Below, piece by piece: positions 5,899 through 56,808 of a stretch of 64,000 nt of DNA. The notes under the pieces were generated by a model. The model was given only the letters and a program-made list of their open reading frames with translations, did not search any database and was not told the DNA's origin. Location: assembly GCA_951406725.2 (NCBI GenBank), contig OX597837.1:2604001-2668000 (forward strand), written 5' to 3'. Within the stretch, counting starts at the first letter, position 1. The number at the start of each line of letters is the position of its first letter. The translations under genes and the position numbers were made by a program. The DNA is from Octopus vulgaris. Taxonomy: Eukaryota.

Positions 5899-7918
5899 CT
5901 TTTTTTTTTCTTCTTTCAAATTTTATTCCATTTCTTGCCGAGTGTCTTCCCGACTCCTAGGGCAAAGAAACTCATAGTGTATATTGGTAGGCCATTAAAC
6001 CAAACTCAGTAGTTCGTTCATTTTTTTTTTTTTTTTTTTAAAGTTAAATTAAAATACATGAGCAGCAACAGTTCTCACATCGACAATGCTCTTCTCAATA
6101 CGTGTGATGTACCAGTTAAGACAATCTTTTGCACTTCTTGCAGGGATGGTAAGCCAGGGATCATTCTCATATAATTTTCGGTTCCCTTCTTGATCATTCC
6201 TAGTGCTCCTACGATCACTGGTATTGTAACCGCCTTGAGATGCCACATTTTCTCAATTTCAATGAGTAGGTCTTTATATTTTCTGAGCTTGTCAAACTCT
6301 TTCGCTGAGATATTATGATCACAGGGGATACTCATGTCGATCAATAAGCAAACTTTATTGTTTTGGTCTTTCACAACAATATCTGGTTTATTGGCCTTGA
6401 TGGTTCGGTCTGTATGTACTGGAAAGTCCCACAGAATGGTTACATTTTCTCCTTCAGTTACAGCCTCAGGGTGGTGATTATACCACTTGTCGGCAGTTTT
6501 GATATTGTAATGCCGACTTATTAGCCAGTGGAGATATTGGCCAACTCTGTCATGTCTTAATTTATACTCCACTGATGCTAAGACTTTACATCCAGAGATT
6601 AGGTGGTCCACTGTTTCAATCATGTCGTTGCAGAATCGGCATTTTGGGTCTGCTCCATTTTTCATCACATTGGCCTGGTAGTTCCGGGTTAATAGGCTTT
6701 GATCTTGAGCAGCCAGGATGAAACCTTCGCTCTCTGCTTTTAGCCCTGAGCTCCGTAGCCACTGATGGGTTTGCTTCTGGTCAACATCAGCTTGTTTGCT
6801 GCGGGTCACATATTTGCCGTGCAGAGGTTTCTCCTCCCACCTATCAGCCAATTGCTCGTGCGCTTTTTTCATTGCCATCATTTTCACCTTCTTTGCAACA
6901 ATAGTTGCCGTACTTCCCTCGGGTTGTTCAGTTTGGGTATCCTGCACGAGATCAATAGCAAATCTTTTGCTTTCCTTGATGATAGAATGAAGCTTCTTTC
7001 GTCTCTCGTGATTTTCCACGAGCTTTAGCATCCAGCCATTCGATATTTCGAGATATTTGGCCAGTCCAATTGTGGTTGTTTTGTAAGCTAGTTCAAATTG
7101 GATCAGGCCTCGATCTCCTTGGGCTCTGGGAAGGTAAAGGCGATCTACGTCTGCCTTTGGGTGGTGCATCCTATTACAACTCAGCAGCTTGCGTATTTTT
7201 CTATCTATATTCTTTACTTCACTCATATTCCAGTTCAACACATTGTAGCTATAAGTAACAACTGGAACTGCTAAGGAATTTATAGCTAACACCTTGTTAC
7301 GTGCATTTAGTTCAGATTTCAGGACTGCACGAACTCTCCTATAACATTCCTTCCTGATTTTCTCTTTCATGCTTGCATGCTGAATACCAGAGCCTTCATT
7401 TATCCCTAAATATTTGTATGTTTGTTCTTGCTCAAGCTCTCTTATGACTGTGTCAACATCTAACACGACTGAATTTGTGGTCTTCACTTTCCCTTTCTGG
7501 AAAGTGGCCTTGGCACACTTCTCAAGTCCAAACTCCATCCCGATGTCATCGCTGAATGCTTTCACGGTGCGCAATAGGCCTTCAAGTTCATTATTGTCTT
7601 TACCATAAAGTTTTAAGTCATCCATATAAAATAGATGGCTTATTTTTTTATTGGCAATTTTATACCCATACCCTGTTCTGTTTAATTCACTTGTAAGGGG
7701 TATTAGGGCTATGCAGAATATTAAAGGTGAAAGTGAGTCACTTTCCAGTACATACAGACCGAACCATCAAGGCCAATAAACCAGCGAAAGTGAGTCACAG
7801 TTGATGTTTATATTTTCTGAGGCAAGTACTCCATTAGAGTGGTATAATTGGAGATTCGTATTCTACAACGACATATTGTGCTTCAGGAAGTTTGAAATCA
7901 CAGGGGAAATTTTGAATA
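5899..7918 (-). mobile_element. 5'-truncated R4/Dong-clade non-LTR retrotransposon flanked by (ATT)n on both sides
   Basis: RT frame continues upstream of the ORF (IFKISPVISNFLKHNMSL*...DSLSPLIFCIAL..HLFYMDD). The 3' UTR (6074-5899) carries AATAAA and runs into (TAA)n. Confidence 0.9.
6075..7625 (-). CDS. Retrotransposon ORF: RT C-terminal part, CCHC zinc knuckle and restriction-like (PD-D/E-K) endonuclease; partial
   Basis: 516 aa open frame with (Y)MDDLKLY, YKYLG, CRFC-x8-HLISGC, RHD, NKPDIVV..IDMSIP..KLRKYKDL and PVIVGALG, diagnostic of RLE-type LINEs. Confidence 0.9.
   Translation of the reverse strand: MDDLKLYGKDNNELEGLLRTVKAFSDDIGMEFGLEKCAKATFQKGKVKTTNSVVLDVDTVIRELEQEQTYKYLGINEGSGIQHASMKEKIRKECYRRVRAVLKSELNARNKVLAINSLAVPVVTYSYNVLNWNMSEVKNIDRKIRKLLSCNRMHHPKADVDRLYLPRAQGDRGLIQFELAYKTTTIGLAKYLEISNGWMLKLVENHERRKKLHSIIKESKRFAIDLVQDTQTEQPEGSTATIVAKKVKMMAMKKAHEQLADRWEEKPLHGKYVTRSKQADVDQKQTHQWLRSSGLKAESEGFILAAQDQSLLTRNYQANVMKNGADPKCRFCNDMIETVDHLISGCKVLASVEYKLRHDRVGQYLHWLISRHYNIKTADKWYNHHPEAVTEGENVTILWDFPVHTDRTIKANKPDIVVKDQNNKVCLLIDMSIPCDHNISAKEFDKLRKYKDLLIEIEKMWHLKAVTIPVIVGALGMIKKGTENYMRMIPGLPSLQEVQKIVLTGTSHVLRRALSM

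Positions 7919-8585: not shown

Positions 8586-8590
<5 letters not shown>
8175..8590 (+). mobile_element. Two tandem family B SINE copies
   Basis: Both contain GTTCAAATTCC..GTCGACTT.GCCTTTCA.CCTTT.GG.GTCGATAAAATAA.TACCAG. Confidence 0.75.
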
Positions 8591-8648
<58 letters not shown>

Positions 8649-9123
8649 GAGTGAGAGAGCAGGTCATGCCATCAAAGTGACAGTGGGGTAAACTATACGA
8701 AGCCAAATATACCCATCATGACTACCCGTCTGATAAGGGTACACCAGGCACATGCATCACAACCATATGTGCGCGACATGGTGATCTCATATCAAGATAA
8801 ACAGCACATGACCTTGCAGGTGGGGCCCAGTTAGAATTTTCTTCAGGTTGAGTAGCCCATCCCGCTCAAAAGGTCCCTGAATAAGGGTTGTTTAAGGATG
8901 TTGAAAGAACCACCCATGTTTCCAGAGGTGAATTATTCAAACCCCAAAGAATCCCTCTCAACACATGGCTATGATGCTCCCCCACTACTTCTGCTTGTGA
9001 TCAGAGATGCACATATCGTCAGCCATTAAGGGACATGCTCAACTGGTTACGGTCAAACAACTGACATGCAAATCTGTGGTATTGAGCAGAATATTTGCTG
9101 TAGCCCAAAAGATGTAGCCCATC

Positions 9124-10357: not shown

Positions 10358-11622
10358 GACAGATATAGAACGACTTTACCTGCCAAGAAAAGAGGGTAGC
10401 CGTGGACTTTAACAACTGGAACTAACAATCAAGATTGCCACAATTGGCCTCTACACCTTACCTGAAAAACTCTGATGACTTGATGATAAAACTTGTCTTA
10501 AAGCACGAAAACAAGAAAGCATCATACTCAGTAACAAAATAGGCAAAGGAATATCTAAGTGAATTCCAAATACTACAAATCCCAGAATTAGATGTGCTGG
10601 AAACAAGCACAGAAAAAGCTAAGCGTATGAAAACCCTGCTAAAACTGCTGCCTTATATATTCTTACTGATAAATGGTAAGAAAAACCTCTCACTGGCAAA
10701 ACCCACAAAGAGAGCTAATAGTGCCGATGTTGACAAAGCCCTTACCTATCAATGGTTAGTGTCTTCTTGCTTAAAAGCAGAAACAGAAGGGTTTATCATA
10801 GTAGTCCAAGATCAATGCCTACCTACCAGAAGCTACCAGGTCAACATATTAAATAACGGCAGTATCCCAACATGTCGTGTATGTCAAGATCAAAATGAAA
10901 CCATTGATCATGTTGTCACCATGTGCAGTCTTCTTGCGCCTATAGAGTATCTCAACAAGCATGGTAGAGCAGAACAGTATATTCACCAGATAATTTGCAA
11001 AAACCTTGACCTGTCCTATGATAAAAATTGGTGGGAACACAAACCACCTCCAGTGCTTGAAAATGGTCACATCTCATTCCTCTGGAACTTCACCATTCAA
11101 ACTGACAGAAAGATAGATGCGAATAGGCCAGATATGAAAGACTTCAGACAAAAATCATGCCTCCTCATTGATATGACTGTCCCAATCGACATAAATGTAT
11201 CAGTCAAGTCCTACCAAAAACTGAGCAAGTGTAAAGATCTTGTAATAGTAATTGGCGAAATGTAGAACCTCAAGACTAAAACAATGCCTGTTGTCATAGG
11301 TACCCTAGGAATGATAACGAAAGGGGCTGATTGATACCTAGTTCAGATACCAGAAAACTCCAAAAAGGCAGAAATTCAAAAGATAGTGCTCATAGGAACT
11401 GCCCAAATCCTACATAAAATACTGTAATCTCAAATTTTAAAACAAACTTATAATTTTCTTGTTTTCTTAAACATTCACTAGAACAATACTATGTACAAAA
11501 CCAAATATATGGCAACCAACATAACACCAGCATGAACTTCTAACTTGTTGTCTCTTGAGGTCTCTGGGTGAGACTTGGAGTCAACTTGTACAAATACAAA
11601 GGAAAAGTCAAACATATGGTGA
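10358..11622 (+). mobile_element. Degraded 3' part of a second R4/Dong-type LINE family ending in (TAA)n
   Basis: DIERLYLPRKEG, LKAETEGFII..QDQCLPTR.YQ, CRVC-x8-HVVTMC, ANRPD..IDMTVP and MPVVIGTLG, with frameshifts and stops. The 3' UTR runs into (AAT)n at about 11625. Confidence 0.85.
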
Positions 11623-11624
11623 CG

Positions 11625-12236
<612 letters not shown>

Positions 12237-18561: not shown

Positions 18562-19267
18562 AGGGGGAGTTTCGATCAAAAGGGATCGTAAAAGGAGAGA
18601 AAGAGGACAAAAAAAAGGGGGGTTAAAAAAAAAGGGGGAGAGGAAAAAAAAATTGATCAATAGGGATCGTTATCACAGAAATGTCAATATGAAGTGTAAA
18701 GGGGAGGACAGGTGAGGTTTACCCGTGGAAAGAAAAGCCTACGGAAAAGACCACGGTAACCTCGGTCAATGAAGTCACATTTTATATTTCTTTTTTTTTT
18801 TTGCAAATAAGCAACTCTCTGTTTTCGATTTCTGGGTTCATAGGACTATGCTCAAGGTGGCTTCGTCATTCATACGTGCCATTCTTGCTACATTCACCCA
18901 TCTTTTTTTAAAACATTCGCTAGACAAAACTTGCCTCTCTACTCTCACTTTCCTTTTCAAGTGGTACTTGAAGAAGTTGATGAGAGATTGACCAGAGAGG
19001 AAAGTGTTTGTCTCCAATCCTTTCAGACGCGTCCACCAGATACATTCTTTCGCCATAGCCACAAGGATGATGAAAATAGCTCTTCCTTCCCGTTTGAAGG
19101 AAGGAGGCGTGACAATATTGACGATAGACTCAGCTGATAAACCGACTCGTCCCACACGTGACAGCAGTTGTTCGACATAAGCCCACAGGTCGGAAATTGT
19201 TGGACACTGAACGAGTGCGTGCAGAACGGTTTCGTCGCTCTGACCGCATCTCGGGCAGGTCGGCCCC
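18457..19267 (-). mobile_element. 3' end of a Tx1/L1-group LINE (C-terminal zinc finger and 3' UTR) inside (TCTA)n
   Basis: GPTCPRCGQSDETVLHALVQCP..W..AKECIWWTR is typical of the ORF2 C-terminal CCHC region. The 3' UTR ends AATAAAGAAACA, and (TAGA)n lies at both ends. Confidence 0.8.
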
Positions 19268-19459
19268 ATAGATAGATAGATAGATACAGACAGACAGACA
19301 GACAGACAGATAGACAGACAGACAAGCAGGTAGGCCGGTAGGCAGGCTGACAGATATGTAGACATAAATAGTTAGGTAAATAAATTGATATATAGAAAGG
19401 TAGATATATACATACATACTTAAATACATGGATATATTTACATATATACGTACATATAT

Positions 19460-23498: not shown

Positions 23499-23541
<43 letters not shown>

Positions 23542-23779
23542 TAAGGGTAGAAATTGATATTTATCAATTAAGACCAGTGGTCTAGCATATTAAAAAAGAA
23601 TCCGAAGATTAAAATATTTATATATACCAATTAAGGACTGAACACGAAAAGTGGACAGTCAACATGCTAGATATAGACGTCAAATCGCCGTTCACCACAA
23701 AAGATTATGTTCTCAGATCAAACTCAACACAAAACCATAGCAATAAACAAGTGAAAAATATACGAAATAAAATAATTAC

Positions 23780-23844
23780 CCATGTACTAACTTAGTTTCA
23801 GCTGTTATTTTCCGCAAGGAAAACTGCAGCCATCATCAGCATGG
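23780..23844 (-). ncRNA. Type I hammerhead ribozyme motif (inverted copy)
   Basis: Exact reverse complement of 23901-23965. Confidence 0.8.
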
Positions 23845-23900
23845 TCCGTTATAAATGTAATTTGCTGGACTAGATGCAAACACGATACCGAAATATCGGA

Positions 23901-23965
23901 CCATGCTGATGATGGCTGCAGTTTTCCTTGCGGAAAATAACAGCTGAAACTAAGTTAGTACATGG
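23901..23965 (+). ncRNA. Type I hammerhead ribozyme motif
   Basis: ccatg-CTGATGA-t-ggctg[cag ttttcc ttgc ggaaaa taa]cagct-GAAA-ctaa g ttag-TA-catgg. Predicted cleavage after GUA at 23960. Confidence 0.85.
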
Positions 23966-24407
23966 GTAATTATTTTATTTCGTATATTTTTCACTTGTTT
24001 ATTGCTATGGTTTTGTGTTGAGTTTGATCTGAGAACATAATCTTTTGTGGTGAACGGCGATTTGACGTCTATATCTAGCATGTTGACTGTCCACTTTTCG
24101 TGTTCAGTCCTTAATTGGTATATATAAATATTTTAATCTTCGGATTCTTTTTTAATATGCTAGACCACTGGTCTTAATTGATAAATATCAATTTCTACCC
24201 TTAATTAATTTTATATAAATAAATATGTTCTCTAACCGATAAATTAACTGCTGCTAATTATTAGCTGCAGGCTAGTTTTCTCGGGTTTCAACGCGCCAAA
24301 GTAAAGGCATTTGAAAGATATATTCAAATGTAATAGGCTGAACTCCATGCACGCGATATTTCGGTATCGTGTTTGCATCTAGTCCAGCAAATTACATTTA
24401 TAACGGA

Positions 24408-24472
24408 CCATGCTGATGATGGCTGCAGTTTTCCTTGCGGAAAATAACAGCTGAAACTAAGTTAGTACATGG
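24408..24472 (+). ncRNA. Type I hammerhead ribozyme motif (tandem copy)
   Basis: Identical to 23901-23965. Predicted cleavage after 24467. Confidence 0.85.
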
Positions 24473-24623
24473 GTAATTATTTTATTTCGTATATTTTTCA
24501 CTTGTTTATTGCTATGGTTTTGTGTTGAGTTTGATCTGAGAACATAATCTTTTGTGGTGAACGGCGATTTGACGTCTATATCTAGCATGTTGACTGTCCA
24601 CTTTTCGTGTTCAGTCCTTAATT

Positions 24624-24687
<64 letters not shown>

Positions 24688-25553
24688 CACGGGGTGCGGG
24701 GAATAAATTGTCGTCTAAGTTATGCAAAAATTAAAATAACACTGACATCAAATTCTAACAAATATATTTACCAAAATTGCATTAAAGTGTTTTAAAATTC
24801 TAAAAGTAAATTTATTCAATAAAATCGCCATTGGCTTCAACCACGACCTCCAGATGACTTTGAAATCTCTTGTAACTCTTCTGGATGGTCTCCTTGTTTA
24901 AGTTAGTGAATGCTACCATAATCCTTCAGTTCATCTTTGGGGTTACAAGGAGTTTTGTTGGTCTCTCGTTCAATAGCACCCCACACATAATAATCAAGGA
25001 GGTTGCTGTCTGGAGAGTTAGGTGGCCAGATGTTAGGAGTGATGTGGTCGCAGAAATTATCTGACAGCCATGACTAGGTTCTCCTTCTTGTGTGGCATGG
25101 TGCAGAGTCCTCTTGCCAGACATATAGCCTTCCAGCAGACATCCTCTTGACCTAGGGCAGCACTCCTCCAGGCACTTGATGTAGGCCTCCATGTTGAGTC
25201 TGAGACCGTGAAGGAAGATGAATGGAGGCATAACACCACCATCAATGGGGATCACTCCAAACACCATGATGTTGGCTGGATGTTTGATTTTTATCACTCT
25301 CGGTACATGTCCTAAGATTGACACCCAAACACTCTGAAATATTCGTATTGGAGCTTCCGGTGCGAATGCCAAGCAGTGAAGCATCTTTTTTTCAAATTTC
25401 TGGAAAAGTGAATTGTGTAATGGTGCTGTTCTTCTCACAAACGGTACCCAACTGACCCTACTATACTGTGTAGTCGACAAAATGAAAAACAAACAATGCA
25501 CATGCGCGAAATTAAAAATATAAAATGGTGACAATTTACCCAAATGCACCTTG
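24688..25553 (-). mobile_element. Deleted Tc1/mariner transposon (maT/DD37D-like)
   Basis: Imperfect TIRs (..GGTGC....TAAATTGTC) with TA flanks. Transposase remnants KHPANIMVFGVI..GGVMPPFIF..GLRLN.EAYIKCL and WPPNSPD.NLLDYYVWG. Confidence 0.8.
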
Positions 25554-25632
25554 TATATGTGTGTCTGTATATCATGTATATGGATATGCATACATATACA
25601 TACATACATACATACATACACACATACATATA

Positions 25633-25703
<71 letters not shown>

Positions 25704-26017
25704 TGTTATTCTTTTATTCTTTTCTTTGTTTTAGTTATCTGATTGCAGCCATGCTGTGGCACCGCCTTTAGTCGAACAGATCGACCGCATGAATTATTCT
25801 TTGTAAGCCTAGTAGGGTGGCTGTGTGCAGGATGGAAGAGCCTTTTGTAGGCTTAGGAGTAAGAGAGAGGAGTTGAGCTGGAAGCCAGGAGGAGAAGAGG
25901 AGCAGTGATTTGGTCACCTCTGCTGAGCGACCAACGGGAGGTTGTTACGGTTCAGGGTCGAAACAGCTGATGAACAATGGATACCGTCTGACAATGTCGG
26001 TTCCTGCAGGTGTTGTT

Positions 26018-47417: not shown

Positions 47418-48355
47418 AGTAATTAAGGGTTTAGCAACGATTTGCCTCACCACACACCAAATTTAGAAATAGCAGTCAAAGAGTTTTGGCTATTCTTTCT
47501 ACTTAAAAGGGAGATCCCAGTAAAACCACAGCACTTAAAAAGCAAACAACGCAGGCAAAAGAGAAAGAAATGACGACAATCATTCTATATTAAGTCACCT
47601 ACGGACGTACGTTTCGGAATTAAGTCATAGCAGAGCATAAAAATTAAATAATTATGTCTTACCTAACTATTTTCCTGTAAGATGCTACAGTTTTTTTACT
47701 CGGATGAAATATAATTATTAATAATAAAGGGTGAAATTAATTAATTTGGAATAATCATTGATTTCACCAAGTATATTTCATCCCAGTAAAAAAACTGTAG
47801 CATCTTATTTTGGCAGCACGCTGACGGAAGGGGGATGGTGACATACTTTCATTCACCCTTTGAATTTGGTGGTACTGGTAATGGCTTACGCTCACTCTGA
47901 TACCATGAGTTGAGGTGATGTCTTCTAGTGCCTTCAAATTTAATACACAATTATTAATAATTGAGACGCAATTATTTATAATTGAAGAGTACTACGCTGA
48001 AGAGGAAAATAGTTAGGTAAGACATAATTATTTAATTTTTATGCTCTGCTATGACTTAATTCCGTCCGTAGGTGACTTAATATAGAATGATTGTCGTCAT
48101 TTCTTTCTCTTTTGCCTGCGTTGTTTCCTTTTTAAGTGCTGTGGTTTTACTGGGATCTCCCTTTTAAGTAGAAAGAATTGCCAAAACTCTTTGACTGCTA
48201 TTTCTAAATTCGGTGTGTGGTGAGGCAAATCGTTGCTAAACCCTTAATTACTTAGTATTACTTAAACATTCCTTGAATGGGGCTTTTACATGCCGAACTC
48301 TACTTGGTGAAATTAATGATTATTCCAAATTAATTAATTTCACCCTTTATTATTG
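47418..48355. mobile_element. ORF-less element with nested inverted repeats and a hammerhead split between its arms
   Basis: Inverted pairs 47418-47676/48003-48252, 47679-47700/47786-47807 and 47720-47773/48301-48355. The arms together reconstruct ctacg-CTGAAGA-ggaa..ttcc-GAAA-cgtacg-TC-cgtag. Confidence 0.75.
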
Positions 48356-48385
<30 letters not shown>

Positions 48386-56425: not shown

Positions 56426-56468
<43 letters not shown>

Positions 56469-56470
<2 letters not shown>

Positions 56471-56753
56471 AATTAAGGACTGAACACGAAAAAGAGGACA
56501 GTCAACATGCTAGATATAGACGTCAAATCGCCATTCTCCACAAAGATTATGTTCTCAAATAAAATAAAATTCAGCACGACCCAAAGCAATAGATAAGACA
56601 AAAGAAATATACGAAATGGAATAATCACCTGTGTACCGAACGGTTTCAGTTATTAATATCACAAGGATATCTGTAACTTCGTCAGCACAGTTTGTTATGA
56701 AAATAATTTGGTGTACTAGATGAAAAACGATACCGGATTCTCGTATGCAAAAA

Positions 56754-56754
<1 letters not shown>
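56469..56754 (-). mobile_element. Solo diverged copy of the 23528 hammerhead element, in (TA)n
   Basis: Shares CCAATTAAGGACTGAACACGAAAA..GGACAGTCAACATGCTAGATATAGACGTCAAATCGCC with 23627-23690, and has the same 3' junction to (TA)n. Confidence 0.85.
56629..56690 (-). ncRNA. Type I hammerhead ribozyme motif
   Basis: ctgtg-CTGACGA-agtta[cag atatc cttgt gatat taa]taact-GAAA-ccg tt cgg-TA-cacag, with all three stems fully paired. Confidence 0.85.

Positions 56755-56808
<54 letters not shown>

What the first reader, a model, noticed from the sequence alone, without database searches (positions are those of the whole stretch)
56469..56754. Diverged sibling shows compensatory changes in every hammerhead stem
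Seen: compared with 23901-23965, stem I changes ccatg/catgg to ctgtg/cacag, stem II ggctg/cagct to agtta/taact, the loop II hairpin ttttcc/ggaaaa to atatc/gatat, and stem III ctaa/ttag to ccg/cgg. CUGANGA, GAAA and GUA are kept, and the 3'-terminal 65 or so bases stay nearly identical. Inference: selection acts on the RNA structure and on a terminal recognition sequence, which is good internal evidence that the ribozyme is needed for propagation.
Basis: seen in the sequence. Interest (0 to 1): 0.75.

Follow-up and report, generated by a model that had tools for sequence, protein, structure and literature searches.

The report
Hammerhead retrozyme fragment with covarying stems
This is a shortened copy of a 507-base, protein-free jumping repeat whose predicted self-cutting RNA has kept its base pairing through many double changes across its subfamilies, a known kind of genomic parasite that is likely pasted into TA repeats by Penelope-type retrotransposon enzymes.

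Summary
Observation confirmed. Against the copy at 23901-23965, 7 of 22 hammerhead pairs change on both sides, 1 becomes G·U and none breaks. Across 103 genomic insertions, 13 of 14 shared stem variants stay paired versus 5 of 31 private ones (p=1.4e-6), and the core is almost invariant. So selection acted on the RNA of the source lineages.

Two corrections. Stem III is 3 bp plus a self-complementary loop, which fits dimer cleavage. The 'terminus' is internal: the 286 bp are positions ~222-507 of a 507-nt tandem unit (1,952 matches to a 29-nt motif). In 43 of 52 insertions two inverted arms run into (TA)n from two fixed sites ~100 nt apart, the Penelope 'tail' footprint. Young intact RT-GIY-YIG elements exist in the genome but share no sequence with the unit.

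Verdict: a non-LTR retrozyme, new member of a known kind. This single-ribozyme, tail-less copy is probably dead. Cleavage, circles and the partner enzyme are untested, and no arm ends at the cut site (0 of 100). The scan found the same class before on other DNA of this genome.

The parts
56469..56754 (-). 5'-truncated single-arm copy of subfamily A (unit positions ~222-507) of a 507-nt hammerhead retrozyme; no tail, no inverted arm, one ribozyme
56621..56698 (-). Type I hammerhead: distal stem I 56698-56695/56624-56621, 4x4 internal loop, stem I 56690-56686/56633-56629, CUGACGA 56685-56679, stem II 56678-56674/56652-56648, CAG/UAA internal loop, stem IIb 56670-56666/56660-56656, GAAA 56647-56644, stem III 56644-56635
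56633..56634 (-). Predicted self-cleavage site, after GUA (H17 = 56634)
   Evidence: position follows from the hammerhead consensus, cleavage untested
56469..56557 (-). Conserved segment T (unit ~416-507) ending at start site S1; predicted hairpin plus a strand predicted to pair with the tail that this copy lacks
56426..56468 (.). (TA)n target, 3' side of the element
56755..56803 (.). (TA)n target, 5' side of the element
23519..23898 (-). Subfamily B insertion, inverted arm running from unit ~236 through 507 and the tail to start site S2 (~108); hammerhead core at 23839
23893..24625 (+). Subfamily B insertion, direct arm of 1.45 units ending at S1; full 507-nt unit 24119-24625; hammerhead cores at 23906 and 24413 (predicted cut after 24467)

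Best explanation
The 286 bases are a 5'-truncated copy of a 507-nt, non-coding tandem repeat with a type I hammerhead whose stems covary across subfamilies, and it is likely a dead product of a non-LTR retrozyme that a Penelope-like RT-GIY-YIG enzyme likely copies into (TA)n. Steps. (1) Shown: tandem source loci carry one hammerhead per unit. (2) Inferred: a multimeric transcript self-cleaves after GUA, probably as a double hammerhead because stem III is short and self-complementary, and the 507-nt monomer is probably ligated to a circle. (3) Inferred from footprints: the enzyme cuts (TA)n and primes cDNA at two internal sites, S1 (right after the conserved segment) and S2 (~100 nt further on); the two arms join head to head, often at the same template position within short palindromes. 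(4) Shown: arms run through the ribozyme and past one unit length, so the template was a circle or an uncleaved multimer. (5) Shown by shared-versus-private variants: lineages that spread kept the ribozyme fold, while single copies decay at random. This copy has one ribozyme and no tail, so it probably cannot yield a monomer.
For: Unit, tandem spacing and copy number: 512 matches, reversed control 0; 1,952, control 0; 87 exact A-type matches. Covariation on 27 hand-picked rows: 96.1% of cells paired, 14 of 22 pairs with double changes, slid controls 25-45%, 0/500 shuffles reach the paired fraction or covariation score. RNAalifold recovers the same five helices unaided. Shared 13/14 vs private 5/31 paired, each core position conserved in at least 102 of 103 insertions except N7. 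Intermediates link A and B step by step. Double changes include transversions (II.1 G-C/C-G; IIb.1 and IIb.3 A-U/U-A), which CpG decay cannot give. Stem III stays self-complementary in A, B, C (self-duplex -8.6 to -13.6 kcal/mol) and in older subfamily E (TCATGA in 9 of 10 rows). Footprint: 46 of 52 insertions two-armed, 43 with S1+S2, 24 of 45 junctions within 10 nt, 36 of 100 arms cross the cut, 22 exceed one unit; palindromic junctions. Two internal start sites bounding a tail were shown in vitro for a Penelope-like element (PMC11167929). Autonomous candidates: 16 of 148 GIY-YIG hits lie in 781-aa frames with RVT_1 and GIY-YIG, 8 copies 98.5-99.7% identical, ending in (TA)n with an optional ~38-nt tail. 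Circular folds z -2.3, -6.4, -3.0 (30 shuffles each).
Against: No cleavage assay and no circle detected. 0 of 100 arms end within 3 nt of the cut. No sequence homology between the unit and 36 loci around GIY-YIG hits (2 weak hits, one AT-rich, one a neighbouring insertion of another retrozyme) or the 781-aa family's 3' UTR; its tail is ~38 nt against ~100 nt here, so the partner is not identified. In one search, 28/500 shuffles reach the number of double-change pairs and 497/500 the number of further pair types, and related rows inflate the other measures. The predicted structure of the conserved segment has only 1 of 19 pairs with a double change. The 10.1-11.1 pair is U·U in 34 insertions and was left out of the shared/private test. 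The focal ribozyme's minimum-energy fold (-17.1) is not the active fold (-11.2). In Xenopus only 1 of 9 tested retrozyme dimers cleaved (bioRxiv 10.64898/2026.07.22.740005).
Confidence: 0.8

Rival explanations
1. The unit is the pseudo-LTR of an autonomous Penelope-like element that I did not find, and these copies are its truncated ends rather than a separate retrozyme.
For: Same inverted-arm and tail anatomy as Penelope elements (PMC8557442, PMC3846280 passages). Xenopus retrozymes match pLTRs in 24 of 57 families. Only 36 loci from the best GIY-YIG hits were compared.
Against: The unit forms head-to-tail arrays of itself (507-nt spacing). In the upstream flanks that I saw (outputs were cut) arms led into the previous unit, an inverted arm or unrelated DNA, not a shared ORF. 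The Penelope-like elements examined carry short minimal hammerheads of another design (27 of 36 loci, 2 pairs overlapping).
Confidence: 0.1
2. The double changes arise mainly by template-switch (quasi-palindrome) repair during copying, and the ribozyme is a passenger that is not required for spread.
For: Template switching can create compensatory changes in one step (PMC8794818, abstract only). The element folds back at palindromes during insertion. Ribozyme-dead RNA is still inserted in vitro by a Penelope-like protein. No arm ends at the cut.
Against: Template switching would not hold the unpaired core (CUGANGA, GAAA, UA) and the CAG/UAA loop nearly invariant while the same half of the unit diverges by 27%. 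It explains how changes arise, not why only paired forms spread.
Confidence: 0.07
3. The conserved 3' segment is homogenised by recombination between subfamilies (mosaic units) and is not a recognition sequence under selection.
For: The contrast between halves is steeper for A/B (91-94% vs 61-66%) than for A/C (71-74% vs 48-53%). This segment is in almost every insertion, so it is the most available donor.
Against: Graded intermediates between A and B exist in the ribozyme half (L220, L141, L188, L222), and the low-T/high-H pattern recurs within A (0.022 vs 0.105) and within B (0.022 vs 0.150). The tree for the conserved parts is too poorly supported to show a swap.
Confidence: 0.2

Closest known systems
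Metazoan non-LTR retrozymes (Cervera and de la Pena 2020, PMC7229834, parts 2-4 of 6 read; Li, Clavereau and Pollet 2026, bioRxiv 10.64898/2026.07.22.740005, parts 1-3 of 5 read)
   Same: Non-coding tandem repeat with one type I hammerhead per unit, low GC, no LTR, short helix III with a palindromic loop, U·U at the base of helix II in some subfamilies (as in HHR_Amex2), self-paired circular fold, coexistence with Penelope-like elements.
   Different: 507-533 nt, above the 150-450 bp of the 2020 paper but within the 51-972 bp of the 2026 preprint. Inserted in (TA)n as inverted pairs with two fixed start sites, which the parts read do not describe for retrozymes. No homologous pLTR found. Helix II is extended beyond a CAG/UAA internal loop. 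Cleavage and circles not shown here.
Penelope-like element pLTRs and insertions (Frangieh et al. 2024, PMC11167929, parts 1-2 of 4; Craig et al. 2021, PMC8557442, 12 passages; Arkhipova et al. 2013, PMC3846280, 8 passages)
   Same: Head-to-head inverted 5'-truncated arms, palindromes at the junction, tail at one end only, two internal start sites, microsatellite or AT-rich targets, hammerhead near the end.
   Different: No ORF. Tail ~100 nt versus 30-40 bp. Full-size hammerhead versus the minimal ones of Penelope elements.
Minimal and dimeric hammerheads of Penelope elements (Cervera and de la Pena 2014, PMC4209133, parts 1-2 of 4 and 2 supplementary files searched)
   Same: Palindromic helix III/loop 3 thought to act in dimers; extra nucleotide between A9 and 10.1 (subfamily B); many families with compensatory changes within one genome are already reported there.
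   Different: This ribozyme has a 3-bp helix III and a long helix I with an internal loop. The U3-A8 minimal form occurs in the genome's autonomous elements, not in this repeat.

Membership tests
Type I hammerhead ribozyme | CUGANGA and GAAA core with UH cleavage site around three helices, helix I open | tested here: met
   not detected by Rfam models
Type I hammerhead ribozyme | Helices supported by covariation | tested here: met
   R-scape itself not available
Type I hammerhead ribozyme | Self-cleavage at the predicted site | not testable with these tools
   No assay; genomic 5' ends do not pile up at the cut (0 of 100)
Non-LTR retrozyme | Short tandem repeat with an intact type I hammerhead in consecutive units | tested here: met
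   Met by the family: 505-512-nt spacing; window 23906 and 24413. The focal copy is a single truncated unit.
Non-LTR retrozyme | No protein-coding capacity, no LTR | tested here: met
   No ORF of 150 aa or more overlaps 56469-56754 or 24119-24625; flanks are (TA)n. PBS and PPT were not searched for.
Non-LTR retrozyme | Expressed as monomeric linear and circular RNA | tested here: inconclusive
   Only assembled contigs of runs not on record as RNA
Non-LTR retrozyme | Homology to a Penelope pLTR of the same genome (2026 preprint) | tested here: inconclusive
   None found in 36 loci; search not exhaustive, and the preprint found it in only 24 of 57 families
Penelope-like insertion product | Inverted 5'-truncated arm and tail at one end only | tested here: met
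   43 of 52 insertions; the focal copy is of the single-arm S1 type (5 of the 52 sampled)
Autonomous Penelope-like element | RT plus GIY-YIG ORF between pLTRs | tested here: not met
   No ORF in the unit; such ORFs occur elsewhere in the genome

The most novel reading that the evidence does not exclude
A viroid-like 507-nt RNA circle evolving under RNA-level selection in an animal genome, which cleaves only as a double hammerhead (so monomer circles are stable) and carries its own two-site priming domain, shared in geometry and short motifs with unrelated retrozymes but with no pLTR: a convergent mimic that lets a Penelope enzyme prime both cut DNA strands on one circle. Its graded subfamilies A, B, C and E would then be a natural mutational scan of both domains.
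Probability: 0.25. Interest if true: 0.65.

Novelty: new member of a known kind. Interest (0 to 1): 0.38.

Why it matters
It confirms with an internal control (shared versus private variants) that the ribozyme fold is under selection in the spreading lineages. It also gives a ready series of natural variants to ask two open questions: what the hammerhead does for Penelope-linked elements, and whether Penelope enzymes mobilise retrozymes in trans. The class, the covariation of such hammerheads and the two-site footprint are already in print, and this scan has reported several similar families in this genome, so the gain is incremental.

Tried and rejected
Rfam: 0 matches.
RNA evidence: no RNA holder listed. 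Contigs of guessed-RNA runs cover subfamily B across the cut site (for example 24143-24557 without differences), and none of three such runs covered the A ribozyme. Contigs cannot show ends, strand or circles, so neither result is used as evidence.
Partner search: a Pfam accession recalled from memory was not in the library. GIY-YIG loci showed no homology to the unit. A weak hit at L158 led to another retrozyme family D, and a contig end led to older subfamily E; neither showed an RT ORF in the output I saw (cut).
Pile-up of 5' ends at the cut site: absent.
Clean module swap between A and B: not supported (12 of 28 chosen rows failed extraction, only one C row remained).
First stem parse was wrong and discarded. 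One search used all 91 sequences (13/16 vs 7/39, p=1.8e-5); one search dropped 5 misparsed or indel rows (L092, L093, L118, L120, L223). One search had one row with wrong coordinates and was replaced. One search crashed and was rerun.
Literature: searches 'octopus + hammerhead ribozyme' and 'cephalopod + retrozyme' listed no description of such a repeat. The supplement of PMC7229834 could not be read, file 1 of PMC4209133 was not searched and the preprint's supplements were not seen; any could list this family. Repbase and Dfam were not available.

Full report
Observation. The minus strand of 56469-56754 holds a type I hammerhead with core at 56685 and predicted cut after 56634. The window holds three more copies of a sister form, at 23839 (minus), 23906 and 24413. 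Of 22 pairs, 7 change on both sides, 1 changes to G·U, 14 are the same and none breaks; none of 200,000 random placements of 15 substitutions keeps all pairs. The last ~65 nt differ by one substitution and one indel. Rfam detects nothing.

What it is. The 286 bp are flanked by (TA)n on both sides and correspond to positions ~222-507 of a 507-nt unit. The unit occurs in head-to-tail arrays on many contigs of a 2.8-Gb genome. A 29-nt motif near its end has 1,952 exact matches, a ribozyme pattern 512, and the A-type ribozyme 87; reversed controls gave 0. I call the focal form A and the sister B. An older form C (533 nt) and a still more diverged form E (70-74% to A) also exist. No ORF of 150 aa or more overlaps the unit. 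Earlier notes of this scan call the animal an octopus; I did not check that.

Covariation. From the loci I extracted 91 distinct ribozyme sequences. On 27 rows that I picked as representatives, 96.1% of cells pair and 14 of 22 pairs show double changes; slid controls pair 25-45%. No shuffle of 500 reaches the paired fraction or the covariation score, but 28 reach the number of double-change pairs and 497 the number of pair types. The better control is internal: among 103 insertions, stem variants seen in three or more insertions stay paired in 13 of 14 cases, those seen in one or two in 5 of 31 (p=1.4e-6, five rows dropped; with all rows 13/16 vs 7/39). The 10.1-11.1 pair was left out because it is U·U in 34 insertions. 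Core positions other than N7 are conserved in at least 102 of 103 insertions. Intermediates connect A and B. So selection acted on the RNA of the source lineages, and single copies decay. Template switching could supply double changes in one step (PMC8794818, abstract) but would not hold the unpaired core.

Stem III. The foldable stem is 3 bp, and the region stays self-complementary while its sequence turns over across A, B and C (self-duplex -8.6 to -13.6 kcal/mol, in-cis hairpin 0 to -0.9) and in E (9 of 10 rows). This fits the dimeric cleavage described for metazoan type I hammerheads (PMC4209133). It is an inference.

The 'terminal' sequence. The last 88 nt differ at 2 sites between an A and a B copy, the ribozyme half at 58 of 212 (p=5e-8). 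But identity is also 85-91% over the next 200 nt of the unit, and only ~72% to C over the last 65 nt. The segment is internal. In 52 insertions on contig C1, taken from the first 100 matches, 46 are head-to-head inverted pairs; in 43 one arm runs into (TA)n at unit position ~1-13 (S1) and the other at ~105-108 (S2). In 24 of 45 simple pairs both arms start within 10 nt of each other, often in short palindromes. This is the inverted-arm and tail footprint of Penelope-like elements (PMC8557442; PMC3846280), and a purified Penelope-like protein starts reverse transcription at two internal sites that bound the tail (PMC11167929). The segment is predicted to pair with the tail in all three circular folds, but only 1 of 19 predicted pairs shows a double change. 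A recognition role is therefore likely but unshown.

Is the ribozyme needed? 36 of 100 arms cross the cut site, 22 exceed one unit, none ends within 3 nt of the cut, and 29 of 52 insertions have no arm crossing it. The template was thus a circle or an uncleaved multimer, and the ribozyme is not part of most insertions. Its likely job is upstream, making the monomer or circle, as shown for coral, mussel and axolotl retrozymes (PMC7229834). Against over-confidence: ribozyme-dead RNA was still inserted in vitro, and 1 of 9 Xenopus dimers cleaved. RNA data here are uninformative.

Partner. GIY-YIG has 148 matches, 16 in 781-aa frames with RVT_1 and GIY-YIG domains. Eight of nine compared copies are 98.5-99.7% identical, and the ten copies read end in (TA)n, two with a ~38-nt tail. 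The linker fits the CX2-5CxxC pattern that PMC8557442 ties to Neptune; no tree was built. These elements carry minimal hammerheads, mostly with the known U3-A8 core. They share no detectable sequence with the unit, and the tail length differs, so the partner is unidentified. An unrelated retrozyme family D has a similar ~100-nt spacing and similar short motifs before both start sites.

Verdict. A truncated, probably dead copy of a non-LTR retrozyme family with real covariation. New member of a known kind; the searches and one search found no published description, with supplements unseen. The scan has already reported the same class and footprint for other families in this genome, though no look-alike of this unit. 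Interest 0.38.

Noticed in passing
window 47420-48357: Two-armed insertion of another hammerhead retrozyme, ~72% like family D; in the plus arm the ribozyme has lost its GAAA-to-GUA segment, while the inverted arm retains it.
   Followed up: partly
L171-L177, L183-L185 (e.g. G000:C16:20836700-20840200): Young Penelope-like family with intact 781-aa RT-GIY-YIG frames, a ~1-kb 3' UTR rich in TGACGTC and CCAAT-type repeats, a minimal U3-A8 hammerhead about 67 nt before the end and a ~38-nt tail.
   Followed up: partly
L154, L178, L181: Second Penelope-like family (46% protein identity to the first) with a minimal hammerhead whose core reads CCGAAGA in two copies and has G at the cut position in a third.
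   Followed up: no
L227-L256: Family D retrozyme with a long stem II and the same two-arm, ~100-nt-tail anatomy but no blastn similarity to unit A.
   Followed up: partly
5' truncation points cluster at unit positions 376-450 (54 of 100 arms), 60-130 nt upstream of S1; the sample was chosen by a motif at 452-480, which excludes shorter arms. Cause unexplained.
   Followed up: no
L005:1480-1500 region (G000:C24:11745400): An A copy lies directly beside a tRNA-like sequence, separated only by (TA)19; not checked with ARAGORN.
   Followed up: no
window 6075-7766 (minus), 10543-11265, 18838-19371 (minus): Fragments of non-LTR retrotransposon ORFs: RVT_1 in the first, weak zf-RVT in all three; unrelated to the hammerhead repeat as far as tested.
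   Followed up: partly
window 8586-9001 and 11802-12217: 416-nt inverted repeat, 93% complementary, starting in an (ATT)n run; probably two copies of another repeat.
   Followed up: no
window 24926-25705 (minus): 259-aa open frame with transposase-like fragments by eye (recalled resemblance); no Pfam hit.
   Followed up: partly
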